Shown here one piece after another: positions 10,007 to 30,453 of a DNA stretch of 64,000 nucleotides. The stretch is taken from NCBI GenBank assembly GCA_041664445.1, contig JBAYKT010000002.1, positions 8,629 through 72,628 of the forward strand, written 5' to 3'. Within the stretch, counting starts at the first letter, position 1. The number at the start of each line of letters is the position of its first letter. The position numbers and the translations under genes were made by a program. The notes beneath the pieces are model-generated. The model saw only the letters and a list, made by a program, of their open reading frames with translations. It searched no databases and was not told the origin of the DNA. This DNA is from Patescibacteria group bacterium. Lineage in GTDB: Bacteria; Patescibacteriota; Patescibacteriia; Patescibacteriales; UBA12465.

Positions 10007-10009
10007 ATA

Positions 10010-12367: not shown

Positions 12368-12383
12368 GGTTTTATTATAGCAA

Positions 12384-12416
12384 TAAAAAAGGGGCTTGAA
12401 AATCAAGCCCCTTTAA
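12384..12416 (-). terminator. Strong intrinsic terminator after secF: perfect stem ggggcttga/tcaagcccc followed by T7 on the minus strand
   Basis: 9-bp GC-rich perfect stem with a 3-nt loop. The minus-strand read gives tttttttattgc after the stem. Confidence 0.6.
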
Positions 12417-15707: not shown

Positions 15708-15726
15708 AGATCACGACTAAATAAAA

Positions 15727-15753
15727 ACTCCGCACGTGGCGGAGTTTTTTTAT
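15727..15753. terminator. Bidirectional intrinsic terminator between clpP (+) and the convergent surface-protein genes (-)
   Basis: actccgc-acgtg-gcggagt hairpin flanked by an A-run upstream and T7 downstream. Confidence 0.6.
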
Positions 15754-16831: not shown

Positions 16832-16833
16832 AT

Positions 16834-17040
16834 CTAATTAAGCACCAAAAAAATAATCACCGCGAATAACATTAAAATTACTCCGCCTAAAATAAACCAG
16901 AGCTTAAGATTACCGGCACTCGTTTTGGGCATTGAATGGACTCCAATCGCTAAACGCGAAGGACGAATTTGAGGAGCCGCTTTACTGAGAGTAGCAGGCG
17001 CCGGATTTTTTTCTGGTGTCAGGTTAGCGCCATTAGTCAT
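16834..17040 (-). CDS. Small (68 aa) C-terminally membrane-anchored protein, hypothetical
   Basis: ATG start, single C-terminal TM (LWFILGGVILMLFAVIIFLV), packed between two surface-protein genes with a 2-nt gap. Confidence 0.35.
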   Translation of the reverse strand: MTNGANLTPEKNPAPATLSKAAPQIRPSRLAIGVHSMPKTSAGNLKLWFILGGVILMLFAVIIFLVLN

Positions 17041-17045
17041 AAAAA

Positions 17046-17801
17046 TTATTTGATTACATTACCTGGCATTTTGGCTCCGACAGCGTTAGGATCATATCCG
17101 CCTCTAACTTCCTGACCATCCGGATAAGTATCGCCATCAGTGTCAGCTTTTAAGGGATTGGTTTTGTAGATTTTTACTTCTTCATAATCACTTAGACCGT
17201 CGTTATCAGTATCAATTAAATTAATATTAGTACCGGCAACTAATTCTTCGGAATCAGTTAAGCCATCGCTATCAGAATCAACGGGAGCAGCATTAACAGG
17301 AACGGTTGCTGTCTCCTCAATATTAATTTCCGTCGTGGTGGTGGCACTTGGCGAAATCGCTTCTGCAGTTGTAGTATCAACGCTAGGAATTTCAGTCACA
17401 AAAGTTGAGCTGCTAGTTGTTTCGGTATTAGTTTCTACAACATTATTATCTTGATTAGCAGAAGTTGAAGTCGCTACCGGTGTTCTGACTACTGGCACAG
17501 AGCTAGTATCAATCGGCTCTGCTTTAAAAAATTTATTATAAGCCAAAAATCCCAACAAACCTAAAATAACTACCACCATCAAAATAACGGCGATTTTAAA
17601 ACCAGAACCGCCTCTTTTAGGCTCCGATCTTAGAGACTCGGCAGAAAGTCCGCTCGGAGCTGTTAAGCCGACACGTTGAGTCATAATTTCGGCCGGCGCT
17701 TGCGGTCTTTGATTGTTATTGGACACGTTATCGGTTTCGGCGAAAATATCGTCAACCGGCTGATGTCCTGATTGGTTAGCGTTGTCGAGGTTGTCAAACA
17801 T
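17046..17801 (-). CDS. Membrane-anchored surface protein with a Ser/Thr-rich stalk and three thrombospondin-type-3-like Ca-binding repeats
   Basis: TM IAVILMVVVILGLLGFLAY, then repeats DSDSDGLTDSEE, DTDNDGLSDYEE and DTDGDTYPDGQE. Paralog-like of 15773-16831. Confidence 0.6.
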   Translation of the reverse strand: MFDNLDNANQSGHQPVDDIFAETDNVSNNNQRPQAPAEIMTQRVGLTAPSGLSAESLRSEPKRGGSGFKIAVILMVVVILGLLGFLAYNKFFKAEPIDTSSVPVVRTPVATSTSANQDNNVVETNTETTSSSTFVTEIPSVDTTTAEAISPSATTTTEINIEETATVPVNAAPVDSDSDGLTDSEELVAGTNINLIDTDNDGLSDYEEVKIYKTNPLKADTDGDTYPDGQEVRGGYDPNAVGAKMPGNVIK

Positions 17802-17872
17802 ATTTTTGTATAAGTAACTTGATTATCTTTAAAGTATAGCCAATAAGAAAACTTTTGGCTAATAATTTATTT

Positions 17873-18229
17873 TTATTGTTGCACTGATTGGGTGGCCGGC
17901 CGCATCATATCGGGATCAGCAATGCGACTAGGGTCTAAAATAATATCGGCGTCTTTACGAATAACGCGATAAACTTCGGTTTTACCAGATTCATCAGTTT
18001 TTAAAACTTGAATTTTAGAATCAGCTGGCAAGTTAAGACTAGACTTTTCCTCAGCACTCATAAACTCCGGGGCCGGTAGTGGGTTAATTGCTCCGGATTG
18101 AGAAAGATTGTCGGCGTTCAATTTATTATTACGGATTAAAATAAAAACCAAGATACCAATGATAACGATTACAGTTATCAAACCGATTATAATAATTTTT
18201 TTATTCTTATTTAACATATTATGCAACAT
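17873..18229 (-). CDS. Small N-terminally anchored membrane protein (118 aa), hypothetical
   Basis: N-terminal TM KIIIIGLITVIVIIGILVFILI, located immediately upstream of the giant secreted protein. Confidence 0.45.
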   Translation of the reverse strand: MLHNMLNKNKKIIIIGLITVIVIIGILVFILIRNNKLNADNLSQSGAINPLPAPEFMSAEEKSSLNLPADSKIQVLKTDESGKTEVYRVIRKDADIILDPSRIADPDMMRPATQSVQQ

Positions 18230-18250: not shown

Positions 18251-21200
18251 TTAATTGCAAGACTCGTTAGTAATTAATACTTCTCCGTCCATGCAATTGG
18301 CGGTAGCGGTACACGTATTAGGCCCGGCAACTTTAGTTACTGTTTGTGTGCTGTTCGGACCGCCGCTTTCTAAAACGCCATGATTATAATCATCAACTGT
18401 TCCGGCAATACAATTAGCTAAACAGACATTATAATAACCAAAAGTTGATAGATACCAATTGCCACTGGTACAGCGATAACCGGGGTTAGCGATGGGGCCA
18501 GTTGTTCCCGTATTTGTTACAGCTCCATTAATACTACAAGTAATGATGGTGCTGTAATACCCGCCTTCCGGATGAAAAGCGACATTAGTTTTAACTTCAT
18601 AGTTAGAACCATATTTAATGGCCGGATAAGAATAGCCGTCGATAACTCCCTGGGGGCAAGTTGGAATCAAAGTACATTGATTATTAGTGCAAGTATAATC
18701 GGTAGTATTAGCACAGGCACAAGTGCCATCGCAACCATCGGTGCCGCAATAATTAGCCGGGCAGGAAGGGGTACAGGTATTAGCATCGGCAACACAAACC
18801 CCCTGTTGGTCAAGGACCCAATCACAGCCACCAGGAACATTGGCTCCCGGACAAGAATAGTCGTCATATTGAGCACACTCAGCGCCATAGTTGCCGGTTT
18901 GACCACTTTCCATAGATTCACAATGGCCGTAAGCACCTTCACAATGCTGACCCGTGGGGCAAGTACTGTTCCAAGTACTGTCGCAGGTAGCTCCCGGTGG
19001 CGGAGTAAAGACTGGCTTCTTAACACAAAGCCCATTTTCGTTCATTGTACCATCTAAAACGGTGCTGCCCGTGGTTCGACAATCATCTTGATAACAACGA
19101 TTGGCTGCAAAATCTCCAGTACAAGTCCATTGAATCCGAGTTCTCCAACCTCCTAAATCGGTCCAGACTTGCTTGCACTGACCGGAAGAACGGTAGCTTA
19201 GAGGAGTTAACTTATTTTGAAAACCAATCGGACAATAGGTGAACTTGGCAGAAGCAGCGCTAATGGCGCTAGAAGCATCAGAAGCCCACTTACTAATACA
19301 TCTGGTGTTATCTAACTTAACAATACTGCAATCGCTTAAAGGATCGGGGGTTTTGACTCCTTCATTGGAATTATAGCAAAGCCTAGTTCCTTCAGAATAA
19401 TTATTATTTATTTGGGCGCTAGTAAAATTAAATAATGGCTGTTTATGAGGATCAACCCAAGTTTGATAATTTTTATTAGCTAAAACCGCATCGCCTTCAG
19501 CAACAGATACGACTCGCGCGTCTTTCTCTACAATCGGCCAGCATTTTTTCTGACAAACACCAGAGCTAGTACATTCATATCCCAGGTCGCAATACAAACC
19601 ATTATTACAATCCAGCGGCACTTCTTCCCCTTCGCTTAAAGTTTGGTCGGCGCCAAAATAATTAGGATCACAATCAAAGGGGCAGTTATCAATGTTTTCA
19701 TATAAAGTGTTATTGATTTTAAGCTGACAATAAGTGTCGCCACAGAAACCGCCACCGTCTAGCGGGGATTTAAAAATACAATAATTACTGCCAGTAATCG
19801 GATAAGGAGTAGAGGCGATTGAAGTCGTGTTGCAAGCGTACTGAACATTTTTATTGCTACCAGCCACACTAGTCGCAACATTACTGCTGCCATCGCAAGC
19901 TTCTTGACCATCATTCCTAACGCCGCCGCGACCTTCGGTATTAGGCTTTTCAATTACTCCGTCGCCGCAATAAGTATTAACGTCTAAAATAAAACTTTTT
20001 TCCGTAGCCGTGCCATATTCGTTAACCGCCTTAATTCTTACTTCTTGGTCAACTCTAGCCACAACCGTGTTTCCTTCCAAATAAACGGCGTTTTGATTGT
20101 TAGCACTAGCGGAAAGATTAAGCCCGGCGGGCATCGGTGAAGTAACCGAATAAGTTAAAGTATGGTTACCCTGAACGGTTGATCCTAAACTGCATTTATA
20201 TGCATAATTTAGACGCGACTGATTGGCGCAATTAAAATCTAGCACCGGCTTATCGACAATTATTTTAATGATAAAGTCATCAGTCACTGGGTTTCCAGCA
20301 GCATTAGTCACTTGAACGCGATAACGGCTTTCAACATCATCAGTAAATTTCTGAGCAGTTGAGATAACGCCTTGATAATTTACTTTTTGACGATTAAGAC
20401 CCTCAGTACTGGAAGTTCTGGTTATTCCCGGCATTTGTAAAATATTCGGACCGCTTACTAAAATAATGGCGAATGAAGGTGCGTTACCACCACCGGAAAC
20501 ATAAAAATTATAATTAAAGGGCACGGTTGGATCTAGATGATAAGTATAATCTTCGGCTTGAGCAGCTGAAGACAGAGAACTAATTTCAATACGTGTGGTT
20601 GTTGAAACGGAAGCGCCATTGCTATCTGTGATGGTGATACCGACGGGATACAAACCGGCACTACCGGCGCGAGTAGCAAAAATCTTTTTTTGATTAATAT
20701 CACTAGTATCTTTAATAATTGGCGGTGCTCCCTGCCAACCAGGCCAAGAACCGGCTAACGGCTGCAAGCTCCAAGTGAGAGAATCGCCGTCAGGGTCGAC
20801 GGCCTGCACAAAACCATTATATTCATTTCCAGAAATACCTTTTAGGGCTAGACTGGTAATTACCGGGGCAGAGTTAGAAGCATTCCCCGAAGCTGAAATA
20901 CCAGTTTCGGTAACACAGGAACTAGCAGTCGGATCATTAGGAGAAAAAGTATAATTAGGACCGGCGTGAGTTTCTAGCACTGCACATAAATTATAATCGG
21001 AGCCGGTGTCGTTAGTTCCATAGACCAGAGCATAACTATCTTTGGGTAATTTTAAATAAGCTCCCACCGGATCATAAACAAATTTTTTGTTACTATCGTC
21101 CCAACAAGTTTTAGAATTGAATCCCGGGCAAGCCCCCAAGCGATTAATCGGATCGACTAGCGCCTGCTTAATGGCCAGCGTCGGAATCAAAATATCACTC

Positions 21201-21913
21201 CAGCTCGGCCACAAAGAAACGCTTTTACCAGACAAATAAGTACCAGCACTAAGCAGTGGATAGCGACCATTAACCTTTTTATAACTAGCCAAAGCTTCTT
21301 TAATCTCTTCTAATTTTCCGATTCTTTTTAAATCACGAATTATCTTAGCCTTCAAGCTGCCGCAGAAAAAACTGGCCGGGCAATCTTCGTCAACCGTGCA
21401 ATTTTTAGGCTCCTTAAGAGCACAAGTATCATTATTAGAACAAAATTGATTAGAGGCGCAATCAGAATCTTGCTCGCATTTCAAAGAGGAAATGGAACAA
21501 GTAGAAGTTTCTAATGGCAAATTATCATTAAATTTCCAGTGGGAAATTAACTGCCCCAAAATATCAACGGTTTTAACATTATAATCCTGATTATAAGAAA
21601 TTAGATAAATATTGGTGTAGATAACCTTAGCATAAGTGTCCGCATTAGCAGCATTAACATAAACGGTGCGGCCATCACGCAAGGCCTCATAACCGTCAAC
21701 GGTTAAAGACTGTGGGGAGCCGGAAAAACCCTGGCTCTCGTACCAACGATAGATACTATAGTGATTGGGATTAGGAACAATTCTGACGCCAATGGCGTCG
21801 CTATTTTGTTCTTGAGCAGAAACTTTAAATACTGCCCCCGCTAAAAGATAAACAAAAACAACCCCAAGCACAAACAGTGAGCTGCTAGTTCTTACAATCT
21901 GGCTGTTTTTCAT
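18251..21913 (-). CDS. Giant (1220 aa) secreted Cys-rich extracellular protein with a signal peptide and a cadherin-like/VCBS-type repeat
   Basis: Signal peptide ...GAVFKVSAQEQ. Very many Cys throughout. DPDGDSLTWS cadherin-like motif. Uninterrupted 3.7 kb ORF. Confidence 0.8.
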   Translation of the reverse strand: MKNSQIVRTSSSLFVLGVVFVYLLAGAVFKVSAQEQNSDAIGVRIVPNPNHYSIYRWYESQGFSGSPQSLTVDGYEALRDGRTVYVNAANADTYAKVIYTNIYLISYNQDYNVKTVDILGQLISHWKFNDNLPLETSTCSISSLKCEQDSDCASNQFCSNNDTCALKEPKNCTVDEDCPASFFCGSLKAKIIRDLKRIGKLEEIKEALASYKKVNGRYPLLSAGTYLSGKSVSLWPSWSDILIPTLAIKQALVDPINRLGACPGFNSKTCWDDSNKKFVYDPVGAYLKLPKDSYALVYGTNDTGSDYNLCAVLETHAGPNYTFSPNDPTASSCVTETGISASGNASNSAPVITSLALKGISGNEYNGFVQAVDPDGDSLTWSLQPLAGSWPGWQGAPPIIKDTSDINQKKIFATRAGSAGLYPVGITITDSNGASVSTTTRIEISSLSSAAQAEDYTYHLDPTVPFNYNFYVSGGGNAPSFAIILVSGPNILQMPGITRTSSTEGLNRQKVNYQGVISTAQKFTDDVESRYRVQVTNAAGNPVTDDFIIKIIVDKPVLDFNCANQSRLNYAYKCSLGSTVQGNHTLTYSVTSPMPAGLNLSASANNQNAVYLEGNTVVARVDQEVRIKAVNEYGTATEKSFILDVNTYCGDGVIEKPNTEGRGGVRNDGQEACDGSSNVATSVAGSNKNVQYACNTTSIASTPYPITGSNYCIFKSPLDGGGFCGDTYCQLKINNTLYENIDNCPFDCDPNYFGADQTLSEGEEVPLDCNNGLYCDLGYECTSSGVCQKKCWPIVEKDARVVSVAEGDAVLANKNYQTWVDPHKQPLFNFTSAQINNNYSEGTRLCYNSNEGVKTPDPLSDCSIVKLDNTRCISKWASDASSAISAASAKFTYCPIGFQNKLTPLSYRSSGQCKQVWTDLGGWRTRIQWTCTGDFAANRCYQDDCRTTGSTVLDGTMNENGLCVKKPVFTPPPGATCDSTWNSTCPTGQHCEGAYGHCESMESGQTGNYGAECAQYDDYSCPGANVPGGCDWVLDQQGVCVADANTCTPSCPANYCGTDGCDGTCACANTTDYTCTNNQCTLIPTCPQGVIDGYSYPAIKYGSNYEVKTNVAFHPEGGYYSTIITCSINGAVTNTGTTGPIANPGYRCTSGNWYLSTFGYYNVCLANCIAGTVDDYNHGVLESGGPNSTQTVTKVAGPNTCTATANCMDGEVLITNESCN

Positions 21914-21948: not shown

Positions 21949-24900
21949 TTATTTAAAAAATATTATTTCCGCCGACTTAGTGCTTTCATTACCATTGCTA
22001 TCTAAAGCGGAAATCGCAAAATAATTATTACCGGTACTAAGTTTGGCTTTGTCCCAAGATAATGAAGAGGCGTTATTGACGGAATCGTATGATTCGCCAT
22101 AAAGATTACTCTTTACGCCCCGATAAACTCGATAGAACAAGGCATTATTAGTTTGCCAAGTAAATTTAATAGTATCCCCCTTATCTTCAACATTTAATCC
22201 AATCGGGGCTTGCGGCGGCGCCTGATCGGTTGGGGTCATGGTAGCAGCATCGCTCATTGTACTTTCCACCCTATTAGCCGAGATGCCCGTTAAGCGAAAA
22301 TCATAAGCTTGTCCATTTTTTAGAGAAGAAATATGCGCCGTACATTTGTAAACCGAGGAGAACGGCACGCAATAATCTTGCAACTTAAATTCTTGGGATT
22401 TAGTCAGCGCCTTACCGCTCTCACCATAATATATTTTGTAAGATACTGTCGGCGCATTAGCCGCAAACCAGGTAAAGGTAACATCCCCGCCAGTACCAGT
22501 ATCGGTTACGGTCTCAAACGCGGCTTCGCCAATTCCTGCTTCACGGAAAAAATATGATTCCTTCAAAACATTCCAAATACAGATACCATCTAAATGGCCA
22601 TCGCCATTTTGATCGGCACCGCAAGCAGAATTTAAACCGGCGCAAGTTGAGCTATCAGAGCTACAAATCAAAGTCGCACTCTGCCCTCTAATCACCGCCC
22701 TATCCGTAATCGCCGGCAAATCATCAATCGTTCCCGGAGCGCCAGCATCACGGCAATAATAAAACTTATAATTAAAATTGTTACAAGTTCCCCCGATAGA
22801 ACCGGTGCAGTTATCGCTCCAAGGATACCAAGTGCCGTTAGTATTTACTGGCGGCCAAGGATTATTACAAATGAAGACATAGAGATTAGCATTCCCACTT
22901 AAGTTATCGCCGGCTGAAAAAGCGTTGCGACAATTACTGGAACAAACATCGTCTGTACAAGCACAGCCAGAATTAACGGAAGAATTACTATCTAAGAACC
23001 TTACCATATCAATCGTCGCGGATAATTTAGTTTCCCCGTCAGTAATTCCATCTTTGGCTGCTAGCAAAACTTTATCAGGTCCAATACTGGCTATTGAGGC
23101 TACGCTCGCATCGCTCAAATTAAATTTCCAATCCCAGAAATAACCGGTAATCGGCTGAATAACTTGGCCGTCGGCGCTATAAGCTGAGGCCTTGAAAACT
23201 TTATCCTTATCACGCTTAGTATCAAAAGTCTTATCTTGAAAATTAGCGTCATTCTCGTCTAGACTGTTTTCGGTAGTATTGAATAAGTAGGATTCAGGGG
23301 CAATTTTAACCTGGCTAATGGCGCAAACTCCAGAATTAGCGCCCTTATCGGACAGGGTTTTAAATTGAACAATATAAGAATTTTTATAATTTTTATTATT
23401 AAAGCTTAAGGCGGCACCCTCAACACCCTCGATTCCTTCGCCATTTAAACCAATGCCGCTTAAACTGATAACTCCCGATTGGCTATTTAAATCTTCATCA
23501 CCCTTAACAATTAAGAAATACTTGGCCTCCGGAGTTAATAATTTATTAGGCGTAAAATTTAAAACTGTCTCATCACCGGAATACTCGCCGGAAATACTGC
23601 CCTGAAAGGAGCAATATAATTTATTTTGATCTGGCAGGTCAGCCAAAGCTTGATTGCCAAAAAGCTGGCTAATATACGATTTAAGCTTGCCAAAGATATT
23701 AGTAAACCAAGTTTGATTAACGGCCGCAAAATTACCGTCGCCTTCGTAGGCAAAGGTCCCGCTCGGACAAACCGCACCGCCATAATTCATTTCTTCCATT
23801 AATAGCGTATTAGCACTAAAGGAAGCGATATCCATTTGTTTATTAAAGGTAACTTTAATAACTGAGTTGCGACAAACATTAGTAGTCCCACTCGCTGGAA
23901 CTGAACCAGTTACAGCTGGACGGGAATCGCAACAAGTATCAATTCCGCAACCGACTGTAGCGGCATTACCGCAATCGCCATCATTCCTACAGCCACAACA
24001 TAATCCTCGATCAGCGCCGCTGCAATTTCCTTTGTCCGGTTGGCAATACAAATCAGGCGCTTCCGTAGTTTGACAAGCAGTCGGGTCAGCTGGGTTACAA
24101 CAACAGGCGCCGCAATCAGAAATATCAGTAGCGGTCGTCCCGGATTCAGTTAAACAAGAATGCCCCGGAAAATTACAAATTCCAAAATTACAAGTAGCCG
24201 TAGCTGAAGAAGAAACGCAATCTTGGCCAACACCGCCTTCGGCATTACCACAACGAGTAGAGCAAGTACTTAAATTATTAAAATCACCGGAAGTTTTAGG
24301 ATTTTGATCACAAGTACTATTACCGCTGGCATCAGTCTGACAATCATAATAAGCGCAGTAGCCTAAATCAGCGCCACTCGTAATTTGTGAACCACTTTTA
24401 CAAGTAGCTGTTGCTTGATCAAAACAACAGGAAGGGGCTAGGGTGCATTCATCTTTTTGACCATTGAAAAGTGAACAAAAATCTTGTCCAGGATTGGCCG
24501 CACAACCATCAACACAAGCTGGCGTATCTTTATAAGTACCAATTTTTACCGGAGTAGAGGAGGCGCAGGTAGCTGGATCGCCAATTGGCGGTGTCGTCGC
24601 GCTAAAACAATTATAATAACCGCAATAACCAAAATTAGGATCAGCAGGATTAGCGGAAATACTGGTTCCAGAACCGCCGCGACAAGAATCATCACCGGTG
24701 GCTGCGGTGCGATTAGCATCAAAACAGCAAGCAGCATTATGTTCGGAACAAGAACTTAGGCCAGCCAAACCGCTACAATCGGTACAAATTCCTCCTGGAT
24801 TTTGAGCGGTAATACTACAATACTGACCGCCATGCCCCGCACAATTACAAGCGGCATCGTGTTCAGCGACAGTTGTGCCCACATTAGCGCAACCAGAACA

Positions 24901-27663
24901 ACTGCCGAATCCCGCGCCATCATCAGTTGTATCCTGACCGCAGGTTCCCTTGCATTCCAAAGGCGCGCAACAATCTTGAGCGCTATTTTCTATACGGCAA
25001 CAACAATCACAGCTAGCCCCCTCGACGGAGACACAAGAATCAGGCTGAGAAATATCCGGATTACTTTCGCAAACAGAACCAGCGGGACAAATGGTATCGG
25101 AAACGCAACGGCCGCCAGAGCCCAATTGTGCGCAACTTAAACCAATAGCACAAATATCACAAGCTGAAGCCGTATCAACGCAAATATTATTAGAGCCTCT
25201 AACCCAAGCATCTGGACAAGAGGTATTAGTTTTTGTTTCCCACTTACCACCGGAATTACAAGTTAAGGACAAAGAAACATCCTGATTATTAATTCTGAAA
25301 GTTTGAGTTTTTGGCATACTGCAAACACCAGCACTACCATCTTTAACACATTTATTAAGCGTATCGTCATAAGTACAAGGAGCACCAAAAACTCCACAGC
25401 CAGTTACCGAAGCGCAGGAAAAATCACAAGTAGCGACTGTGGTTTTAGTGCCACCGGCATAAGGCGAGCAGGCTCCAGGAACATTAGGACAAGTAGCATT
25501 GACCTGACAAGCACCATAATAATCGGCCAAGGTAGCACAACTTTCCGTAGGATCGCTAGGATTGACAACAAATCCCGTATTAAAGTTCCATTCAAAAACG
25601 GAAGTCGGAATATCAATTAAACAAGCGGCTAAGTTAGCAACACAAGTTCCTTTCTTATAGGTATTACCCGGACAACAAACCTGGCCAGGACATTCAAGGT
25701 CTGAAGAACAAGCACTGATTTCGAAGTTTAATTCATTTCCCCATTCACCATTCTTTACTACTTTAACCGGACCAGTGATGGATTCGGCGGGAACATCCAC
25801 GGGAACGATATCAGCACCATTGTCTTGAGAAATAACACCATAAACTTGCTTGGCAGGATTAAACTGAACTAAAGAGTCATGCCCTACCTGACCTAAATAT
25901 TCGCCATAAACTTTGACTGGAGTAGATACACCTCCCTGTCTAGGTTCTAATTTACAAAGACTTGTTTTTAAAGATAAGGCATCATCAACTCTAAAAATAT
26001 TAGGATTTAATTGTTGACTATCGATAGTCTTACTATTGACTGTCATCCTAATCAAATAACTACCATTGGCTAGACCGTCCGGCACCTTAACTACCACCTG
26101 CTTATCGCTCCAGACCGAACTGGCGCAAACCGGCGGAAAACTATAATTAGCTTCGGCGCTAGCAAAATAAACATGGGAGCTTCCCTGCGCGCCGCCAAAA
26201 CCGCTGCCGGTAATCGTTACATATTGCCCGGCTACTCCTTGAGCCGGCGAGAAAGAAATAATGAAAGGACCATCATTTGGGTCAGCTTCTTTAACAAATT
26301 TTAAATAATTGCTACGCTCTTGGTTGCCGCTGATGTTATTAACCACAAAACTACCGGATTCTCCGGAACGAATATTGGGCGTAGCCGCCGTTCCCGATAA
26401 GCCGCTAGGGTGACTGAAATTAGAATCTAAACCCTGAACATTACTTTGGTAATTACCAAAATAAGCTTGGCCGGAATAAAGATTAATTCCTTGATAGGAA
26501 ACCGAAGAACTTAAAGCGCCTTTATCAGGACTAATTAAGCATAATCCCGGACGAGAAATACTATTAGCGATAAAATCTGGAATGATAGGACCATACTCAT
26601 CATTGGTAATATCTTCCGAGCCGTCTTTAGTAAGCACCTTGATAGCACCGCTTACAACTCCGGTTGGAACCGCAATAATTATTTGGTCATCTTGCCAAAA
26701 ATTAACACAAACCGGATTTATTTCCGAAGGATTACGTCCATTTAAAGAGCTACCCATGAAAACAACTTGGCTTTGGCCAGCAACATATTCGCCAAAATTC
26801 TTTCCCGAAATAGTCAGAAAATTATTAGCCGCGCCATTGGGTGTATCTAAATTACAACTAGTGGCACAATCGGTGTCGGTATCGCAAGCCTGATTGTTAT
26901 TTTCATTACAGAATCCGCCTAAAGGACTGACGGCAGTAATTACTGGCGGCCCAAAACAAGTACAAGTGGCGGCATCACAAGATAAATACTGCGCGCACAT
27001 ATTATTGTCAGCGTCGCAAGTCGCATTACTGACATCGGCATCGCAAGATTCGCCAGCTCCTGCTTTTGGCTGACAGGCACAATTACTGTCACAATAATCC
27101 GAAGGGGCACACATGTTATTTTCCATTTGACAGCCGGGATTAGGACTGGCATCACAACTTGTTTGATGAGGATTAATACTACAATCGGAACCAACACAGC
27201 CACCCCAAGAACCGTCTACACAGGCCATTGACCCGCCGCAACCGCAAGAAGAAACTTGTCCGTTAGTACATAAATTGGGGCCGCCATTACCGCTGATTGC
27301 TCCATATAATTTATTGATAACAAAGGTGGCAATCGCCCAAGAAGCTAAGATAACCGCCAAACCGATACTAGCGCTTACCAAGATTTTTTTAGCTTGGCTG
27401 ATTTTATCTTCTTCACCATTAGAAGTCATCCATAAAAAGCCGGCATAGATTATTAGGCCCAGAGCAATTACTCCCAAGAAACCAAGCGCAATATTAATAA
27501 TTCGACCAACCATTTCGCGTGGATCGCCATCGGCTAAAGCGCCGTTCAAACCATTATTTACCGCCTCAGTGCCAAAGTCTTGGGCAAATACTAAACGCCA
27601 AGCAAAAATACCAATGACTAGCACTATTAATGAAACAAGCTTTTTGCTTAATTTTGTTTTCAC
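21949..27663 (-). CDS. Giant (1904 aa) surface protein. The N-terminus is a signal peptide plus a VirB2/TrbC-like two-helix membrane hairpin of about 125 aa. It is followed by a huge Cys-rich extracellular region with C-terminal FN3-like domains.
   Basis: N-term ...LVFAQDFG|TEAVNN...DPREMVGRIINIALGFLGVIALGLIIYAGFLWMTSNGEEDKISQAKKILVSASIGLAVILASWAIATFVINKLYGAISGNGG. FN3-like PPQAPIGLNVEDKGDTIKFTWQ... at the C-terminus. Uninterrupted 5.7 kb ORF. Confidence 0.8.
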   Translation of the reverse strand: MKTKLSKKLVSLIVLVIGIFAWRLVFAQDFGTEAVNNGLNGALADGDPREMVGRIINIALGFLGVIALGLIIYAGFLWMTSNGEEDKISQAKKILVSASIGLAVILASWAIATFVINKLYGAISGNGGPNLCTNGQVSSCGCGGSMACVDGSWGGCVGSDCSINPHQTSCDASPNPGCQMENNMCAPSDYCDSNCACQPKAGAGESCDADVSNATCDADNNMCAQYLSCDAATCTCFGPPVITAVSPLGGFCNENNNQACDTDTDCATSCNLDTPNGAANNFLTISGKNFGEYVAGQSQVVFMGSSLNGRNPSEINPVCVNFWQDDQIIIAVPTGVVSGAIKVLTKDGSEDITNDEYGPIIPDFIANSISRPGLCLISPDKGALSSSVSYQGINLYSGQAYFGNYQSNVQGLDSNFSHPSGLSGTAATPNIRSGESGSFVVNNISGNQERSNYLKFVKEADPNDGPFIISFSPAQGVAGQYVTITGSGFGGAQGSSHVYFASAEANYSFPPVCASSVWSDKQVVVKVPDGLANGSYLIRMTVNSKTIDSQQLNPNIFRVDDALSLKTSLCKLEPRQGGVSTPVKVYGEYLGQVGHDSLVQFNPAKQVYGVISQDNGADIVPVDVPAESITGPVKVVKNGEWGNELNFEISACSSDLECPGQVCCPGNTYKKGTCVANLAACLIDIPTSVFEWNFNTGFVVNPSDPTESCATLADYYGACQVNATCPNVPGACSPYAGGTKTTVATCDFSCASVTGCGVFGAPCTYDDTLNKCVKDGSAGVCSMPKTQTFRINNQDVSLSLTCNSGGKWETKTNTSCPDAWVRGSNNICVDTASACDICAIGLSCAQLGSGGRCVSDTICPAGSVCESNPDISQPDSCVSVEGASCDCCCRIENSAQDCCAPLECKGTCGQDTTDDGAGFGSCSGCANVGTTVAEHDAACNCAGHGGQYCSITAQNPGGICTDCSGLAGLSSCSEHNAACCFDANRTAATGDDSCRGGSGTSISANPADPNFGYCGYYNCFSATTPPIGDPATCASSTPVKIGTYKDTPACVDGCAANPGQDFCSLFNGQKDECTLAPSCCFDQATATCKSGSQITSGADLGYCAYYDCQTDASGNSTCDQNPKTSGDFNNLSTCSTRCGNAEGGVGQDCVSSSATATCNFGICNFPGHSCLTESGTTATDISDCGACCCNPADPTACQTTEAPDLYCQPDKGNCSGADRGLCCGCRNDGDCGNAATVGCGIDTCCDSRPAVTGSVPASGTTNVCRNSVIKVTFNKQMDIASFSANTLLMEEMNYGGAVCPSGTFAYEGDGNFAAVNQTWFTNIFGKLKSYISQLFGNQALADLPDQNKLYCSFQGSISGEYSGDETVLNFTPNKLLTPEAKYFLIVKGDEDLNSQSGVISLSGIGLNGEGIEGVEGAALSFNNKNYKNSYIVQFKTLSDKGANSGVCAISQVKIAPESYLFNTTENSLDENDANFQDKTFDTKRDKDKVFKASAYSADGQVIQPITGYFWDWKFNLSDASVASIASIGPDKVLLAAKDGITDGETKLSATIDMVRFLDSNSSVNSGCACTDDVCSSNCRNAFSAGDNLSGNANLYVFICNNPWPPVNTNGTWYPWSDNCTGSIGGTCNNFNYKFYYCRDAGAPGTIDDLPAITDRAVIRGQSATLICSSDSSTCAGLNSACGADQNGDGHLDGICIWNVLKESYFFREAGIGEAAFETVTDTGTGGDVTFTWFAANAPTVSYKIYYGESGKALTKSQEFKLQDYCVPFSSVYKCTAHISSLKNGQAYDFRLTGISANRVESTMSDAATMTPTDQAPPQAPIGLNVEDKGDTIKFTWQTNNALFYRVYRGVKSNLYGESYDSVNNASSLSWDKAKLSTGNNYFAISALDSNGNESTKSAEIIFFK
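27280..27663 (-). repeat. Copy 1 of a roughly 380-bp nucleotide-level repeat encoding the shared N-terminal membrane module of the two giant paralogs
   Basis: Compare 27421-27500 (gaagtcatccataaaaagccggcatagattattaggcc...ccaaccat) with 30124-30205 (gaagtcatccataaaaatccagcgtagattattaaacc...ccaaccat). Protein identity over the module is very high. Confidence 0.6.
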
Positions 27664-27680
27664 AAATTTATGTTTTTAGA

Positions 27681-27711
27681 TAACCAAAAATGGCAATTAT
27701 TGACAATTGCC
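27681..27711 (-). terminator. Hairpin ggcaatt-attgac-aattgcc overlapping the stop of the 887-aa gene, followed on the minus strand by atttttggtt. Possible weak terminator or attenuator between the two giant genes.
   Basis: 7-bp stem with a short U-run. Weaker than the other terminators in the window. Confidence 0.35.
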
Positions 27712-30360
27712 GTTAACTAGCGAACTGGTGGCCACTCCGAAACAACATGAAGGACTCTGAGGAGTCGCCGCACAGCCCGGACCGGAGCTGGGTTTAAAGC
27801 AATTTTGAAAAATATTTTTTACACCAGAACCAATTTGCGAGTCATAAGTTATTGACTCTAAAAATGGAGAATGCTTTATTTTTGCAATAGTAATATCCGC
27901 AATTCCGTCCAATGGCAAGGAATCGACATCGGAATTATCCAACCAAAATCCCAGCGGTGTTGGCTCTGAACTCTTTAAATTTATAAATCTATGCAAAACC
28001 GGACTAGTTCCACTATCAACTATTTCGCCGCCGGAACGTAAAGTGCTGGACATCATTAAATTATTAAAAGTAATTTCTATCGGATCAGTTGGCGGAATAT
28101 CATTTTGGCCATTAGCAGGATTAATACTGGTAATCTCGGGTGGTGTAGTTTCTATTTTGTCATTTATAAAGAAGGCGTTACGATAGCTATCGCGATTGCT
28201 TCTGTTGCTAGGGAAATTATCGCTGAAAAAGCTAATTGGACCCTCAACAATTGTGTCCCGATTACCATCCAAAGAGTTAAGCGCCGCGTCAATAATACCA
28301 TCTAACTGGAGCGGGTTCGCGCTAGGATAGTTGCGACCGTTAACGTCTTGACAGGAACGATAGCCTAATTGATTTAAGGCGCAGGTTTTGAAAGGGCTAT
28401 AAGCGGCGCAATCAGCGTCACTGGCACAAACTTTCATATTGGCGGCCTTAAGCTCAACCGATAAATTACTATTAGCCGGCAAGCAGTATATTTTTTCACC
28501 GCAACCGTTAATTCCGCACTCATTATCAGAAATAAATTCTACAGTCCTATAGCTACCGCTAACATTAAAGCGTCCACTGACATAATTTCCGCGACAAACA
28601 TAGGCATCACATCGATAAGAGCGGCAATCAGCATTACTGGCGCAAACTGATCCGTCTACTTTACTGGTTGAAGAGGCGTTAACAACTTGGATATAATTAG
28701 CGACTTCAGAGGCAGTCCCGGATAATGTTAGCGGATTCATCGCCTCGTTAAAGTTAACTTTAATTATAGAATTCATTGGTGAGTCTGGACCACCTTTAAC
28801 CTGGCTGGCGAGTTGTCGATCAACCCCGCCCGTAAAGGCGCTGAGACTCAAGGCATTAGTATTACTGGTATTTAAACTTAAATTGTTGCCAGCTGCGCCA
28901 GCAACTTTGGCGGTTAGCAAAACTCGATTACCGGACCGATTAACAATAATAGCCGAGTTGCCACTTAATTGCGCTTGAATATTGGCCGCCTGGATACCGA
29001 TGTCGCAAGTTCCCGGAACAACAATATTATTATTTCCGCCGCTAGTCGCAAAAACATAAACTTCATTGCCGACGCTTAAGGTGTCAGCTAATTTTTCAGG
29101 ACTAATAGTTATCTCCCAAGAATCTCCGGCCGCATGACCAGTAGTTTTAAGACTAAAGTAACCATCAAAAACTACCGTATTTTGACCATCAAAGTCAGAC
29201 ACTCCCAACAAGGCGTTAGTATTACCATTAAATATTTGTGCCTTATCCGGAGTCGCCGCTGGGACAATCACCTTAAACTTGTTAATCAAACCATGATAAT
29301 CAAGCACGACTTCCGCATTAGGCAAAACGCTGATAACACTAGCTGGAGCATAAGTCTGAGGACAACTATTTACAAAAATATCAGCGCTGGCATTTAGAGC
29401 CGGAGTATCGATATTCAATAAATCGCGTTCATTATCCGGACGCGGATAAAGAGAATTAAACATTACTTGGGGTGGCGTTAAATCCAAATTAGTGCTGACT
29501 TCAAATCCCCATTGGAAGCCATTATTGCTACAAGTGCTGAACATGGATGTTCCGTCGTCCTTCTTGAAATCATTAGTTAATTTGATGTCATATTCAGTAT
29601 TGGCACTCTCTGAACCTAAATAACTTAAGGGGGATAACACTAAAGTTAGCTTATCAGCCGAGACGGCCACTGAAACATCAGTTACATTAGTATTTGGAGT
29701 TGGGCAAGAATTAGTACAAGCATCACCCAAACTGCTTTTAAAAATCCGTATAGCCTGAGGGTTAATCAGGGAGCAGGCGGCATTATCGCAAGCGCAGGCC
29801 GCACCGCTAGCATTTACGCACACTGAATCAAGCCCGATAACTTCTTTAAAGCTAATAATAATTGCGGAATTACGAGCGACATTATTCTGGCTATTTTCTG
29901 GGTAAACCATATCAACGGAACAGGCGCCCATTGCCCCAAATCCAGAGTTAGCTAAATTATTGCCGGAGTTCTGAATAGGATTACCTTCAACTCCAGAAAT
30001 TGCTCCCGCTAAGCGTGAGATAATAAAAGTGGTAATTGCCCAAGCAGATAAAGTAACGGCTAAACCGATGGTGGCATTCTTAAGAATTGTTTTTGCCCGG
30101 CTAATCTTATCTTCTTCACCACCCGAAGTCATCCATAAAAATCCAGCGTAGATTATTAAACCTAAAACAATCACCCCCAAGAAACTGAGGATGATTTGAA
30201 TAATACGGCCAACCATCGCACGCGGGTCACCGCCGGCAAGGGCGATAGAATTATTAACGGCGTTAATTCCGAAATCCGCTTGAGCAGACACGAAAGCGAC
30301 CGGCAAAAGAGCGGCGATAGTTACGAAAAGACCGTAAATTATTTTATTTTTTTTCAACAT
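27697..30360 (-). CDS. Giant (887 aa) surface protein, paralog of 21949-27663. It has the same VirB2/TrbC-like N-terminal hairpin and a Cys-rich extracellular region.
   Basis: N-term ...FVSAQADFG|INAVNN...DPRAMVGRIIQIILSFLGVIVLGLIIYAGFLWMTSGGEEDKISRAKTILKNATIGLAVTLSAWAITTFIISRLAGAISGVEG. Many Cys. Confidence 0.8.
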   Translation of the reverse strand: MLKKNKIIYGLFVTIAALLPVAFVSAQADFGINAVNNSIALAGGDPRAMVGRIIQIILSFLGVIVLGLIIYAGFLWMTSGGEEDKISRAKTILKNATIGLAVTLSAWAITTFIISRLAGAISGVEGNPIQNSGNNLANSGFGAMGACSVDMVYPENSQNNVARNSAIIISFKEVIGLDSVCVNASGAACACDNAACSLINPQAIRIFKSSLGDACTNSCPTPNTNVTDVSVAVSADKLTLVLSPLSYLGSESANTEYDIKLTNDFKKDDGTSMFSTCSNNGFQWGFEVSTNLDLTPPQVMFNSLYPRPDNERDLLNIDTPALNASADIFVNSCPQTYAPASVISVLPNAEVVLDYHGLINKFKVIVPAATPDKAQIFNGNTNALLGVSDFDGQNTVVFDGYFSLKTTGHAAGDSWEITISPEKLADTLSVGNEVYVFATSGGNNNIVVPGTCDIGIQAANIQAQLSGNSAIIVNRSGNRVLLTAKVAGAAGNNLSLNTSNTNALSLSAFTGGVDRQLASQVKGGPDSPMNSIIKVNFNEAMNPLTLSGTASEVANYIQVVNASSTSKVDGSVCASNADCRSYRCDAYVCRGNYVSGRFNVSGSYRTVEFISDNECGINGCGEKIYCLPANSNLSVELKAANMKVCASDADCAAYSPFKTCALNQLGYRSCQDVNGRNYPSANPLQLDGIIDAALNSLDGNRDTIVEGPISFFSDNFPSNRSNRDSYRNAFFINDKIETTPPEITSINPANGQNDIPPTDPIEITFNNLMMSSTLRSGGEIVDSGTSPVLHRFINLKSSEPTPLGFWLDNSDVDSLPLDGIADITIAKIKHSPFLESITYDSQIGSGVKNIFQNCFKPSSGPGCAATPQSPSCCFGVATSSLVNGNCQ
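29975..30360 (-). repeat. Copy 2 of the roughly 380-bp repeat encoding the shared N-terminal module
   Basis: See copy 1 at 27280-27663. Confidence 0.6.
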
Positions 30361-30405: not shown

Positions 30406-30453
30406 CAATGTTAGTCTTATTATAGCATAAATCAGATAAATGAAAAACTTTTT

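What the first reader, a model, noticed from the sequence alone, without database searches (positions are those of the whole stretch)
27280..30360. Two giant paralogs share a VirB2/TrbC-pilin-like N-terminal membrane hairpin and a roughly 380-bp nucleotide-level repeat
Both the 1904-aa and 887-aa proteins begin with a signal peptide ending AQ(A)DFG. A polar segment with DPR(E/A)MVGRII follows, then hydrophobic helix 1, a short charged loop (TS(N/G)GEEDKIS(Q/R)AK), hydrophobic helix 2 and a Gly-rich end. This topology and spacing mirror conjugative T4SS pilins; compare VirB2 TDPATMVNNICTFILGPFGQSLAVLGIVAIGISWMFGRASLGLVAGVVGGIVIMFGASFLGKTLTGGG. Here it is covalently attached to extracellular domains of more than 750 and more than 1750 aa. 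No VirB4, VirB6 or VirD4 is in the window. The two modules are also about 75-80% identical at the DNA level (27280-27663 versus 29975-30360). That makes them a substrate for recombination or domain shuffling of the variable extracellular parts.
Basis: partly seen in the sequence, partly recalled or inferred. Interest (0 to 1): 0.6.

Follow-up and report, generated by a model that had tools for sequence, protein, structure and literature searches.

The report
Giant surface proteins on pilin anchors
Two neighbouring giant surface proteins of an ultra-small (Patescibacteria) bacterium each start with a small module of the kind that builds conjugation-type pili; the pairing is old and widespread, and I found no paper describing it, so it may link these bacteria's essential but unexplained secretion system to the cell surface.

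Summary
ORFs 27697-30360(-) (887 aa, "S") and 21949-27663(-) (1904 aa, "L") each begin with a Sec signal peptide, a polar segment (DFG...DPR) and a two-helix hydrophobic hairpin. Both match Pfam PF18895 T4SS_pilin above its curated cut-off. AlphaFold2 predicts a confident hairpin. No VirB4, VirB6 or VirD4 lies in the window.

- DNA identity is 64-74%, not 75-80%.
- Synonymous sites are at chance level and the longest exact run is 17 nt. The DNA similarity reflects protein conservation, not a recent repeat or a good recombination substrate.
- The ectodomains are conserved over their full length in relatives, not shuffled.

New findings:
- The S-then-L pair is an ancient syntenic block of Patescibacteria chromosomes. 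It appears in 72 of the 80 related genome loci examined, and again between hisS and ftsA/ftsZ in distant lineages.
- Of the 150 best cluster representatives carrying the module, 63 are N-terminal fusions of 566-4410 aa.
- The S and L modules co-vary within genomes and resemble one stand-alone pilin of a pilin array in a close relative.

Best reading: modular VirB2-like pilins that anchor, and probably co-assemble, giant Ig-like ectodomains at the cell or pilus surface. Whether they enter a pilus is untested.

The parts
27697..30360 (-). S protein, 887 aa: signal peptide, PF18895 pilin hairpin, disordered Gly-rich linker (about residues 119-138) and a beta-rich ectodomain of Ig-like domains with two Big_5 matches
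   Evidence: ORF and translation. Pfam PF18895 27.7 bits (cut-off 26.6) and Big_5 E 5.3e-11. AF2 full-length model, mean pLDDT 75.2. At least 200 full-length orthologs of 870-921 aa at 49-91% identity.
29975..30360 (-). N-terminal pilin module of S. Signal peptide about residues 1-26/28, polar segment, helix 46-77, loop, helix 83-121. The hairpin itself spans roughly 29998-30225.
21949..27663 (-). L protein, 1904 aa (GTG start, also GTG in orthologs): signal peptide, PF18895 pilin hairpin, then a Cys-rich giant ectodomain with TIG, Big_5 and fn3-like domains
   Evidence: Pfam PF18895 28.9 bits, TIG 1.1e-10, Big_5 5.1e-9. Orthologs of 1903-2131 aa at 48-91% identity over the full length.
27280..27663 (-). 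N-terminal pilin module of L. Signal peptide about residues 1-27, helix 48-80, loop 81-84, helix 85-123. The hairpin itself spans roughly 27295-27522.
   Evidence: AF2 with a 69-sequence alignment; hairpin pLDDT 82-94. PF18895 33 bits and TrbC 17.4 bits.
18251..21913 (-). Third giant secreted Cys-rich protein of the same gene string (1220 aa). It has a signal peptide only and no pilin module. It is a likely partner, not a paralog.
   Evidence: (He_PIG 24.2 bits). A gene at this position is conserved in relatives.
15773..18229 (-). Four small same-strand membrane proteins downstream (118, 251, 68 and 352 aa). Two carry bacterial TSP3 calcium-binding repeats. They follow the giant genes in relatives too.
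30419..30446 (-). Best promoter-like site upstream of the S gene (TTTTCA, 16-nt spacer, TG-extended TATAAT). This is a consensus match only.
15723..15749 (.). Strong terminator-like hairpin (11 pairs) between the end of the gene string and the convergent clpP. Consensus match only.

Best explanation
S (887 aa) and L (1904 aa) are modular VirB2-like pilins on the chromosome of a Patescibacteria (Falkowbacteria-related) bacterium.

What each protein consists of:
- a Sec signal peptide;
- a pilin module of Pfam family PF18895, the family of the small VirB2-like pilins of the Patescibacteria type IV secretion system;
- a flexible Gly-rich linker;
- a very large Cys-rich ectodomain built largely of Ig-like beta-sandwich domains.

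Steps supported by prediction. After export and signal-peptide cleavage, the acidic N-terminal segment lies outside the cell. Helix 1 crosses the membrane inward. The conserved loop (WMTS-G-GEEDK) faces the cytoplasm. Helix 2 crosses back outward. The whole C-terminal ectodomain is therefore extracellular.

Steps that are inferred. The hairpin keeps every family-invariant residue. It most resembles one particular stand-alone pilin of the lineage's pilin array. It co-varies with its paralog inside each genome. From this I infer that it is more than a passive anchor. It probably docks S and L to each other and to the stand-alone pilins and T4SS-like machinery encoded elsewhere in the genome. The giant ectodomains would then be displayed at the cell surface, or on or at the tip of the pilus, for contact with a host cell or for building the envelope.

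S followed by L is an ancient, vertically inherited, syntenic gene pair. It is not a recent duplication.

Confidence by part: about 0.9 for family assignment and topology, about 0.5 for co-assembly with pilins or machinery, about 0.3 for display on a pilus proper.
For: Family assignment:
- PF18895 above the curated cut-off for both proteins.
- 69 of 69 relatives hit PF18895 and 30 of 69 also hit PF04956.
- hhalign against Agrobacterium VirB2 gives 75.6% probability, in register.
- A sub-threshold NCBIfam hit to a Mycoplasma ICE 'pilin-like conjugal transfer protein'.
- NCBI names orthologs 'pilin'.

Fold and topology:
- AF2 hairpin with pLDDT above 90, a disordered linker, and a confident beta-rich ectodomain.
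- Foldseek matches the ectodomain to strings of Ig-like domains in S-layer proteins and adhesins.

More than a generic anchor:
- The loop and glycine/aromatic positions (columns G51, W54, G59, A67, G77, W85) are 96-100% conserved in both S and L across 72 genomes. They coincide with the invariant positions of stand-alone pilins.
- In the closest complete genome (CP066698.1), the first gene of a six-gene stand-alone pilin array is 53-58% identical to the fused modules, including the mature N-terminus. The other five array pilins and a separate lone pilin are 21-39% identical.
- Within-genome S-L identity of the exposed N-terminal segment is 63.4%. S-S orthologs give 47.1%, L-L orthologs 50.0%, and S-L pairs across genomes 46.2%.

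Ancient core pair:
- 72 of the 80 related genome loci examined have S followed by L; 344 genome stretches in all encode a relative of S.
- Distant lineages keep an S (595-698 aa) then L (3122-4410 aa) pair between hisS and ftsA/ftsZ.

Prevalence of the architecture:
- 63 of the 150 best cluster representatives are N-terminal fusions of more than 500 aa.

Literature:
- PF18895 pilins are essential and lie inside the T4SS cluster of Southlakia (PMC10633639; its supplement).
- VirB2-like pilins were found in 1,948 Patescibacteria assemblies, and no PrgB-like adhesin was detected (PMC12102498).

From my own knowledge of published F-pilus and T-pilus structures, not tested here: the termini of VirB2-type pilins face the outside of the pilus, so a C-terminal extension would point outward.
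Against: - No T4SS gene lies near the pair in the window or in any of the six related loci whose called genes carry Pfam annotation. The flanks are housekeeping and cell-division genes, which suits a core envelope protein as well.
- I could not show that this genome or its closest relative encodes VirB4.
- No Patescibacteria T4SS pilus has yet been seen; reviews speak only of a 'potential to elaborate conjugative pili' (PMC12857230).
- A pilus made only of such subunits is sterically implausible, so at most a minor or tip role is possible.
- The window proteins do not reach the PF04956 cut-off. PDB sequence search finds VirB2 only at E 5.1. Foldseek on the hairpin is non-specific.
- Within-genome covariation could also come from occasional gene conversion rather than physical co-assembly.
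Confidence: 0.5

Rival explanations
1. Passive anchor for a core envelope layer. S, L and the third giant protein form an S-layer-like surface coat or wall scaffold. The pilin-derived hairpin only holds them in the membrane and the T4SS plays no part.
For: - The position between hisS and ftsA/ftsZ is fixed across distant lineages, and no T4SS genes are nearby.
- Full-length conservation with constant length is typical of structural proteins.
- The best structural matches are the S-layer proteins SbsC, EA1 and Sap.
- Patescibacteria are reported to carry conspicuous fibrous surfaces and giant membrane proteins (PMC8080830).
Against: - A passive anchor should drift freely in sequence. Instead the cytoplasmic loop and helix-packing residues are 96-100% conserved and are the same as in free pilins.
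- The module tracks one specific stand-alone pilin and co-varies with its paralog.
- TM-scores to S-layer proteins are 0.13 or lower. They show only that both are chains of Ig-like domains.
Confidence: 0.33
2. Cleavable export leader. The hairpin works as an extended leader or pro-domain. A signal-peptidase-type cut after helix 2 (around GAIS/G) releases the ectodomain, or leaves a free pilin plus a secreted giant protein.
For: - Helix 2 runs from inside to outside like a signal peptide and is followed by small residues (A-I-S, A-T-S) in several orthologs.
- Stand-alone pilins end at about this point.
- Single ORFs with 4-16 tandem hairpins exist. These would be easiest to understand if they were processed.
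Against: - The -3/-1 small-residue pattern is not conserved; A-I-N and T-I-N also occur.
- No processing data exist.
- The linker is predicted to be simply disordered.
Confidence: 0.08
3. Recent duplication or recombination cassette. The 380-bp DNA similarity drives recombination that shuffles variable ectodomains.
For: - DNA is 64-74% identical across the module.
- S and L modules co-vary within genomes, and 12 of 144 modules have their own-genome paralog as nearest neighbour.
Against: - Synonymous sites are at chance level (33 identical codons observed against 31.6 expected) and the longest exact run is 17 nt.
- 130 of 144 modules are closest to the same type in another genome.
- The ectodomains are orthologous and colinear across genomes, and the S-then-L order is fixed.
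Confidence: 0.03
4. Chance resemblance. The module is a generic two-helix membrane hairpin unrelated to T4SS pilins, or it is a type IV pilus (T4P) pilin served by the PilB and PilD genes in the window.
For: - Foldseek on the hairpin returns only generic helical hairpins.
- Weak spurious Pfam hits to other membrane families occur.
- The window encodes a prepilin peptidase and a tandem PilB ATPase.
Against: - PF18895 is passed at the curated threshold, and 26,337 cluster representatives match at E <= 1e-3.
- There is a transitive link to PF04956.
- The N-terminus is a classical Sec signal peptide with an A-x-A site. It lacks the class III G/FxxxE prepilin motif, as read directly.
Confidence: 0.03

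Closest known systems
Stand-alone VirB2-like pilins and pilin arrays of the Patescibacteria T4SS (PF18895; for example SEML1_0014-0019 of Southlakia epibionticum; PMC10633639, PMC12102498)
   Same: Same Pfam family, the same signal peptide plus hairpin, and the same invariant residues. A close relative of this genome has a six-gene array whose first member is 53-58% identical to the fused modules.
   Different: Those pilins are 120-160 aa, lie in arrays and often near virB4. Here the module carries 764 and 1779 extra residues. The genes sit among housekeeping genes and form a conserved S-then-L pair. None of the papers I could search mentions such fusions.
Classical conjugative pilins VirB2 (Agrobacterium T-pilus), TrbC (RP4) and TraA (F)
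   Same: Long Sec signal peptide, two hydrophobic helices with a short polar loop, and the motif DP..MV..I...LG..G...A...I..G..WM aligned in register with VirB2.
   Different: Homology is only remote (PF04956 at 17.4 bits against a 27.9 cut-off; PDB VirB2 at E 5.1). Classical pilins are small. VirB2 and TrbC are cyclised head to tail (my knowledge), which a C-terminal fusion would preclude. This is a monoderm host with no VirB genes nearby.
Modular type IV pilins, such as Streptococcus sanguinis PilB and PilC, in which a pilin module carries an adhesin domain (from my own knowledge, not tested here)
   Same: The same design logic: a polymerisation and anchor module similar to the major pilin, fused to a functional extracellular module and present as a minor component.
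   Different: An unrelated pilin fold and machinery (T4P with a class III signal peptide and PilD processing). Those added modules are far smaller.
Extended VirB6 proteins, which are T4SS membrane subunits with large hydrophilic domains (PMC12857230)
   Same: A T4SS membrane component enlarged by big hydrophilic domains of unknown role.
   Different: A different subunit family: polytopic VirB6, not a pilin.
Surface adhesins of Gram-positive conjugation systems (PrgB), and S-layer proteins made of Ig-like domain strings (SbsC, Sap, EA1)
   Same: Large extracellular chains of Ig-like domains at the surface of a monoderm cell. PrgB-type adhesins are the functional slot reported empty in Patescibacteria.
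   Different: No LPXTG or SLH anchor was found by Pfam. Anchoring is through a pilin hairpin. Structural similarity exists only at the level of single domains (TM-score 0.13 or lower).
Mbov_0395 family pilin-like conjugal transfer protein of Mycoplasma ICEs (NCBIfam NF045849)
   Same: The hairpin aligns to positions 15-78 of the 80-position model (E 4.7e-7 and 5.3e-6). It is another monoderm system with a VirB2-like protein.
   Different: The hits are below the curated cut-off (29.4 and 26 bits against 40), and that family consists of small proteins.

Membership tests
Pfam PF18895 T4SS_pilin (Patescibacteria-type VirB2-like pilins) | Profile match at or above the curated gathering score (26.6 bits) | tested here: met
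   28.9 bits (L) and 27.7 bits (S) for the full proteins; about 33 bits for the isolated 130-aa modules.
Pfam PF18895 T4SS_pilin (Patescibacteria-type VirB2-like pilins) | Sec signal peptide followed by a two-helix hydrophobic hairpin with a short polar loop | tested here: met
   Sequences. AF2 helices 48-80 and 85-123 with pLDDT 82-94, and the same hairpin in the full-length S model. Signal-peptide cleavage itself is inferred from the A-x-A motif.
Pfam PF18895 T4SS_pilin (Patescibacteria-type VirB2-like pilins) | Family-invariant residues (L60, G64, G75, F76, W78, M79, T80, G83, G101 in L numbering) | tested here: met
   These positions are invariant in the 69-sequence alignment that includes both window modules. 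The corresponding positions are 93-100% conserved in S and L of 72 genomes, apart from the Met (82-89%) and Thr (85-93%) of the WMT motif.
Pfam PF18895 T4SS_pilin (Patescibacteria-type VirB2-like pilins) | Small stand-alone protein (about 120-160 aa), usually in an array and/or near virB4 | tested here: not met
   The proteins are 887 and 1904 aa. No T4SS gene is in the window. In the closest complete genome the pilin array lies about 73 kb away.
TrbC/VirB2 (Pfam PF04956) conjugative major pilins | Profile match at or above the gathering score (27.9 bits) | tested here: not met
   L module 17.4 bits (E 0.005), spanning profile positions 2-97 of 98. S module has no hit. Thirty of 69 relatives hit at E <= 0.01, best 6.8e-8, so the homology is remote and transitive.
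TrbC/VirB2 (Pfam PF04956) conjugative major pilins | Detectable similarity to a pilin of solved structure (Agrobacterium VirB2, PDB 8cue) | tested here: inconclusive
TrbC/VirB2 (Pfam PF04956) conjugative major pilins | Polymerises with phospholipid into a helical pilus assembled by a VirB4-containing machine | not testable with these tools
   This needs microscopy or biochemistry. VirB4 was not located for this genome. The three Falkowbacteria assemblies I saw in Table S1 of PMC12102498 are all marked VirB4-positive.
Type IV pilus (T4P) pilins | Class III signal peptide with G/(F,M)xxxE cleaved by the prepilin peptidase | tested here: not met
   The N-termini are classical Sec signal peptides ending VFA/Q and VSA/QA. 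No G-FxxxE motif is present.
S-layer or cell-wall-anchored Ig-like adhesins (SLH, LPXTG/MSCRAMM) | SLH or LPXTG wall-anchor domain together with chains of Ig-like domains | tested here: inconclusive
   Chains of Ig-like domains are present (Big_5, TIG, fn3; Foldseek SbsC E 1.2e-7, EA1, Sap and SdrE, with TM-scores 0.13 or lower). Pfam reported no SLH or sortase-signal domain.

The most novel reading that the evidence does not exclude
The Patescibacteria T4SS-like apparatus uses modular VirB2 pilins. A universally paired short and long pilin fusion primes or caps a pilus built from the stand-alone array pilins, or studs the membrane around the machine. It presents giant Ig-like ectodomains as the host-recognition and attachment device. 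These would be the 'missing adhesins' of this essential system. As far as I know they would also be the first VirB2-family pilins to carry functional domains.
Probability: 0.3. Interest if true: 0.8.

Novelty: new variant of a known kind. Interest (0 to 1): 0.55.

Why it matters
The T4SS of Patescibacteria is essential for epibiotic growth, yet its function is described as completely unknown (PMC11665869). Its VirB2-like pilins are an anomaly for a monoderm, and no adhesin has been found for it (PMC12102498).

A very large and deeply conserved class of proteins puts that same pilin module in front of 500-4400-aa extracellular regions. This offers three things:
- concrete candidates for how the system, or the cell envelope, reaches the host;
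- a natural handle for localisation experiments, because the ectodomains make good antigens;
- a testable prediction of co-assembly between S, L and one particular array pilin.

It would also extend the modular-pilin principle, known for type IV pili, to the unrelated VirB2 family.

If the hairpin turns out to be only an anchor, the result still defines a previously undescribed membrane-anchoring device for the giant surface proteins typical of these ultra-small bacteria.

Tried and rejected
- Foldseek of the hairpin model against PDB. It returned only generic helical hairpins and ion-channel helices, with no hit at E <= 0.001. This is uninformative for so simple a fold.
- Profile search of PDB sequences found VirB2 only at E 5.1.
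- Looking for the closest complete genome (GCA_016432645.1) in the supplement of PMC12102498, to read off its VirB4 status. It was not in the stored part of the file. I had no Patescibacteria VirB4 query and no way to fetch that genome whole, so the presence of a T4SS in this lineage rests on the literature only.
- Genes flanking the relative's pilin array (528 aa, 319 aa, 127 aa) gave no Pfam or NCBIfam hit, so they could not be called VirB6- or VirB3-like.
- Recent gene conversion was tested through synonymous codons and rejected.
- T4P pilin identity was rejected on the signal-peptide type.
- Horizontal transfer or a mobile-element origin was rejected. Composition is unremarkable (GC 0.41-0.445 across the giant genes, window range 0.32-0.445), there are no tRNA genes, and synteny is conserved.
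- Spurious Pfam hits (7TM_GPCR_Srsx, DUF898, FTR1, DctQ) and the source names given to homologs ('Zn-dependent protease', 'PspC') were treated as noise from hydrophobic helices.
- Literature searches for any description of giant VirB2-pilin fusions found none. This is absence in the searchable library only.

Full report
**1. What is in the window**

The window is a stretch of a small, AT-rich (about 39% GC) bacterial chromosome. It is dense in housekeeping genes: nrdD/nrdR, ftsZ, ftsA, secD/secF, clpP, relA, hisS, lepB, queA, ruvB, a UvrD/PD-(D/E)XK helicase-nuclease, gyrA, ndk, glyS and argS. It also encodes type IV pilus components: a prepilin peptidase and a fused double PilB ATPase.

The exact S protein is encoded on a 181-kb metagenomic contig (ENA ERZ27249449, k141_776389). 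The closest complete genome is CP066698.1, Candidatus Falkowbacteria, 977 kb. It carries 87-91% identical orthologs in the same order. The organism is therefore a Patescibacteria (CPR) bacterium of the Falkowbacteria group.

**2. Checking the observation**

ORFs 27697-30360(-) (887 aa, called S here) and 21949-27663(-) (1904 aa, GTG start, called L here) lie 33 nt apart on the same strand.

Both start with:
- a hydrophobic signal peptide with an A-x-A-type site (VSA/QADFG in S, VFA/QDFG in L);
- an acidic polar segment (DFG..AVNN..L..GDPR.MVGRII);
- a hydrophobic helix;
- the loop TS(G/N)GEEDKIS(R/Q)AK;
- a second hydrophobic helix;
- a Gly-rich stretch.

The modules are 63% identical over residues 1-140 and 76% over the 79-residue core. 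The remaining 764 and 1779 residues are not significantly similar to each other. A six-frame HMM search finds exactly two copies of the module in the window.

At the DNA level:
- identity is 73.7% of aligned bases over the stated coordinates, or 66% of alignment columns;
- it is 64% in a codon-aware alignment and 70.9% in the core;
- random window segments aligned the same way give 51 +/- 1.4%.

The similarity is real but somewhat lower than the 75-80% stated. It is also not a repeat in the sense of recent duplication:
- third-codon positions are 46-51% identical;
- of the 76 codons that encode the same residue, 33 are identical against 31.6 expected from codon usage;
- the longest exact run is 17 nt.

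The DNA similarity is therefore what amino-acid conservation plus codon bias would give.

**3. Is the module a T4SS pilin?**

- Both full-length proteins pass the curated threshold of Pfam PF18895 T4SS_pilin: 28.9 and 27.7 bits against 26.6. The isolated modules score 33 bits, E about 6.5e-8.
- The classical TrbC/VirB2 family PF04956 is hit only below threshold by L (17.4 bits, E 0.005, but spanning profile positions 2-97 of 98). S does not hit it at all.
- Of 69 aligned relatives, all hit PF18895. Thirty also hit PF04956 at E <= 0.01, best 6.8e-8.
- A profile of the family aligned to mature Agrobacterium VirB2 gives 75.6% probability over 55 columns. A plain profile search of PDB sequences finds the same VirB2 chain, but not significantly (E 5.1).
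- NCBIfam gives a sub-threshold match to the Mycoplasma ICE 'pilin-like conjugal transfer protein' NF045849.
- AlphaFold2 with a 69-sequence alignment predicts helices 48-80 and 85-123 as a hairpin with pLDDT 82-94.
- Foldseek on that hairpin returned only generic hairpins, as expected for so simple a fold.

Conclusion: membership in PF18895 is met. The relationship to classical VirB2/TrbC is remote and supported transitively.

**4. What is already known about this family**

PF18895 proteins are the VirB2-like pilins of the Patescibacteria T4SS.
- In Southlakia epibionticum, six of them lie inside the T4SS cluster and are essential (PMC10633639; supplement).
- A survey found VirB2-like pilins in 1,948 assemblies and arrays of 2-11 pilin genes in 383 assemblies. 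Identity within arrays averaged 25%. The survey detected no PrgB-like adhesin (PMC12102498).
- A recent review calls these T4SSs unique among monoderms for their potential to make conjugative pili (PMC12857230).
- The function of the system is described as completely unknown (PMC11665869).

None of these papers, and no other paper I could find, mentions giant proteins carrying the pilin module. Automated annotation has noticed the domain: NCBI names orthologs of S 'pilin' or 'Ig-like domain-containing protein'.

**5. How common is the fusion?**

An exhaustive HMMER search with the 125-aa L module against 1.84 billion cluster representatives gave 26,337 hits at E <= 1e-3. I classified the best 150:

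| Architecture | Count |
|---|---|
| N-terminal fusion of 566-4410 aa, with ectodomains of 1.7-8.2% Cys | 63 |
| Fusion of 200-500 aa | 14 |
| Several hairpins in tandem | 50 |
| Stand-alone protein of 200 aa or less | 23 |

A word-index search with the same module returned mainly stand-alone Patescibacteria pilins of 101-217 aa, mostly 120-140 aa, at up to 64% identity. The architecture is therefore a large class and not an oddity of this genome.

**6. S and L are an ancient, conserved, syntenic pair**

- S has at least 200 full-length orthologs of 870-921 aa at 49-91% identity. All carry PF18895 plus Big_5.
- L orthologs of 1903-2131 aa align end to end at 48-91% identity.
- A scan of one genome per species found 344 stretches that encode a relative of S.
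- In 72 of the best 80 loci, the roughly 890-aa gene is followed closely (usually within about 100 nt, sometimes overlapping by a few bases) by a second module-bearing ORF. Where that ORF is complete it is almost always 1500-2400 aa.
- The surrounding order is kept at only about 50% protein identity: a divergent relA, then S, L, a third giant secreted protein, a roughly 110-aa protein, and TSP3-repeat proteins.
- In much more distant lineages, an S of 595-698 aa and an L of 3122-4410 aa again lie together between hisS and TSP3/ftsA/ftsZ/nrdR, as in the window. Their ends are homologous and their middles vary.

This contradicts the idea of variable, shuffled ectodomains in a recently duplicated pair.

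**7. Evidence that the hairpin is more than a generic anchor**

(a) Conserved positions. The glycine and aromatic positions and the loop (profile columns G51, W54, G59, A67, G77, W85, together with E61 and K63) are 93-100% conserved in both S and L across 72 genomes. They coincide with the invariant positions of stand-alone pilins.

(b) Resemblance to one array pilin. In CP066698.1, a six-gene stand-alone pilin array plus a lone pilin lies about 73 kb from the pair. The first array gene (127 aa) is 53-58% identical to the fused modules, including the mature N-terminus AQADFGINAVNNGLN..GDPREMVGRII. The other pilins are 21-39% identical.

(c) Covariation within genomes.

| Region compared | S-L, same genome | S-S orthologs | L-L orthologs | S-L, across genomes |
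|---|---|---|---|---|
| Whole module | 67.1% | 60.0% | 59.1% | 56.5% |
| Exposed N-terminal segment | 63.4% | 47.1% | 50.0% | 46.2% |
| Hairpin | 68.4% | 64.6% | 62.5% | 60.2% |

The effect is strongest in the exposed N-terminal segment. Within-genome identity exceeds the cross-genome value in 72 of 72 genomes. Type identity is nevertheless kept: 130 of 144 modules have a same-type nearest neighbour, and diagnostic positions such as Q/N at column 33 and S/G at column 37 separate the types. Distant genomes show the same thing by eye; for example, both S and L of locus L091 begin AQVDPG.E.L...MPLGNTDPRLVASRII.

This pattern fits co-evolution of subunits that contact each other or a common partner. 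It also fits occasional gene conversion. In this window there is no DNA trace of recent conversion.

**8. The ectodomains**

The full-length AF2 model of S has mean pLDDT 75.2, rising above 90 over roughly residues 320-520. It shows the hairpin, a disordered linker (residues 119-138) and a beta-rich region.

Foldseek matches chains of Ig-like domains: the S-layer proteins SbsC (E 1.2e-7), EA1 and Sap, the adhesin SdrE, and cadherins. TM-scores are 0.13 or lower, so the similarity holds only at the level of domain type.

Pfam finds Big_5 in S. In L it finds TIG and Big_5, plus sub-threshold fn3-type matches. L is rich in cysteine, as are most of the fused relatives (1.7-8.2% Cys in their ectodomains). 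This suits a disulfide-stabilised extracellular protein.

**9. Mechanism**

Steps supported by prediction:
- Sec export, with signal-peptide cleavage probable;
- topology N-out, helix 1 crossing inward, a cytoplasmic loop, helix 2 crossing outward;
- the ectodomain outside the cell.

Steps that are inferred:
- the module is handled like the free pilins by a T4SS-like machine encoded elsewhere;
- S and L co-assemble through their hairpins with each other and with the array-1-type pilin.

From my own knowledge of published F-pilus and T-pilus structures, the termini of VirB2-type pilins face the pilus exterior. A C-terminal extension would then point outward. Because of its size, such a subunit could only be a minor or tip component, or could decorate the membrane around the machine.

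The main rival is a T4SS-independent envelope or S-layer-like role with the hairpin as a passive anchor. It is favoured by the housekeeping and cell-division synteny and by the absence of T4SS genes near the pair in every locus examined. I could not establish whether this genome has VirB4. The three Falkowbacteria assemblies I could see in Table S1 of PMC12102498 are all VirB4-positive.

**10. Verdict**

The pilin interpretation is supported at the level of PF18895. The recombination and shuffling interpretation is not supported.

The finding generalises to a very large, conserved architecture that I could not find described anywhere: a VirB2-like pilin module fused to a giant ectodomain, usually as an S-then-L pair. 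It belongs to a system whose function is an open question. I rate it a new variant of a known kind, with interest 0.55.

Noticed in passing
Database proteins P0211 (1775 aa), P0164 (820 aa), P0121 (427 aa); not in the window: Single ORFs with 16, 8 and 4 PF18895-like hairpins in tandem ('polypilins', about 100-110 aa per unit). Fifty of the 150 best cluster representatives have two or more hairpins. It is unclear whether they are processed into single pilins or act as polytopic membrane proteins.
   Followed up: partly
window 59824-62835 (+): A 1003-aa protein made of two complete PilB/GspE-type ATPase units fused in tandem (Pfam T2SSE matched twice, E 1.1e-226, with an MshEN N-terminal domain).
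   Followed up: no
window 9242-12406 (-): A prepilin peptidase gene (9242-10006) lies directly downstream of a 798-aa Wzy_C/O-antigen-ligase-like protein with C-terminal TPR repeats and a weak PglL_A (protein glycosylation ligase) match. This could be a pilin O-glycosylation enzyme. A second Wzy_C protein is at 44029-45339.
   Followed up: no
window 15773-18229 (-) and 18251-21913 (-): Downstream of S and L on the same strand lie a third giant Cys-rich secreted protein (1220 aa, weak He_PIG) and four small membrane proteins, two of them with bacterial TSP3 calcium-binding repeats. Genes at these positions are conserved in relatives, so all seven may form one surface-protein operon.
   Followed up: partly
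window 27692-27711 (-): A weak terminator-like hairpin (8 pairs, then ATTTTTGG) overlaps the stop codon of S, just before the start of L. It might tune the S:L expression ratio. This is a consensus match only.
   Followed up: no
NCBIfam NF045849 against window 27259-27663 and 29956-30360: The modules give sub-threshold hits to a Mycoplasma ICE 'pilin-like conjugal transfer protein' family. This suggests that VirB2-like proteins are not confined to Patescibacteria among monoderm T4SSs. That bears on the statement in the literature that Gram-positive T4SSs lack VirB2 homologues.
   Followed up: no
Loci L016, L017, L020, L022-L025 and many others: Many contigs that carry this operon, otherwise seen here only in Patescibacteria-labelled assemblies, have titles reading 'uncultured Gammaproteobacteria bacterium'. 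One is labelled Bacillota and one Saccharimonadales. These are probably wrong taxonomic labels on the MAG records.
   Followed up: no
L004 10001-12538 and 5076-5513 (CP066698.1, about 751-772 kb): The closest complete genome has a six-gene stand-alone pilin array plus a lone pilin. They are flanked by proteins with no family match (528 aa, 319 aa, 127 aa), and no recognisable VirB4 lies within 10 kb on either side.
   Followed up: partly
window 53132-54127 (-), 58840-59820 (+), 45287-46168 (-): Three sizeable ORFs with no Pfam match: a 331-aa secreted protein, a 326-aa polytopic membrane protein next to the PilB fusion, and a 293-aa protein.
   Followed up: no
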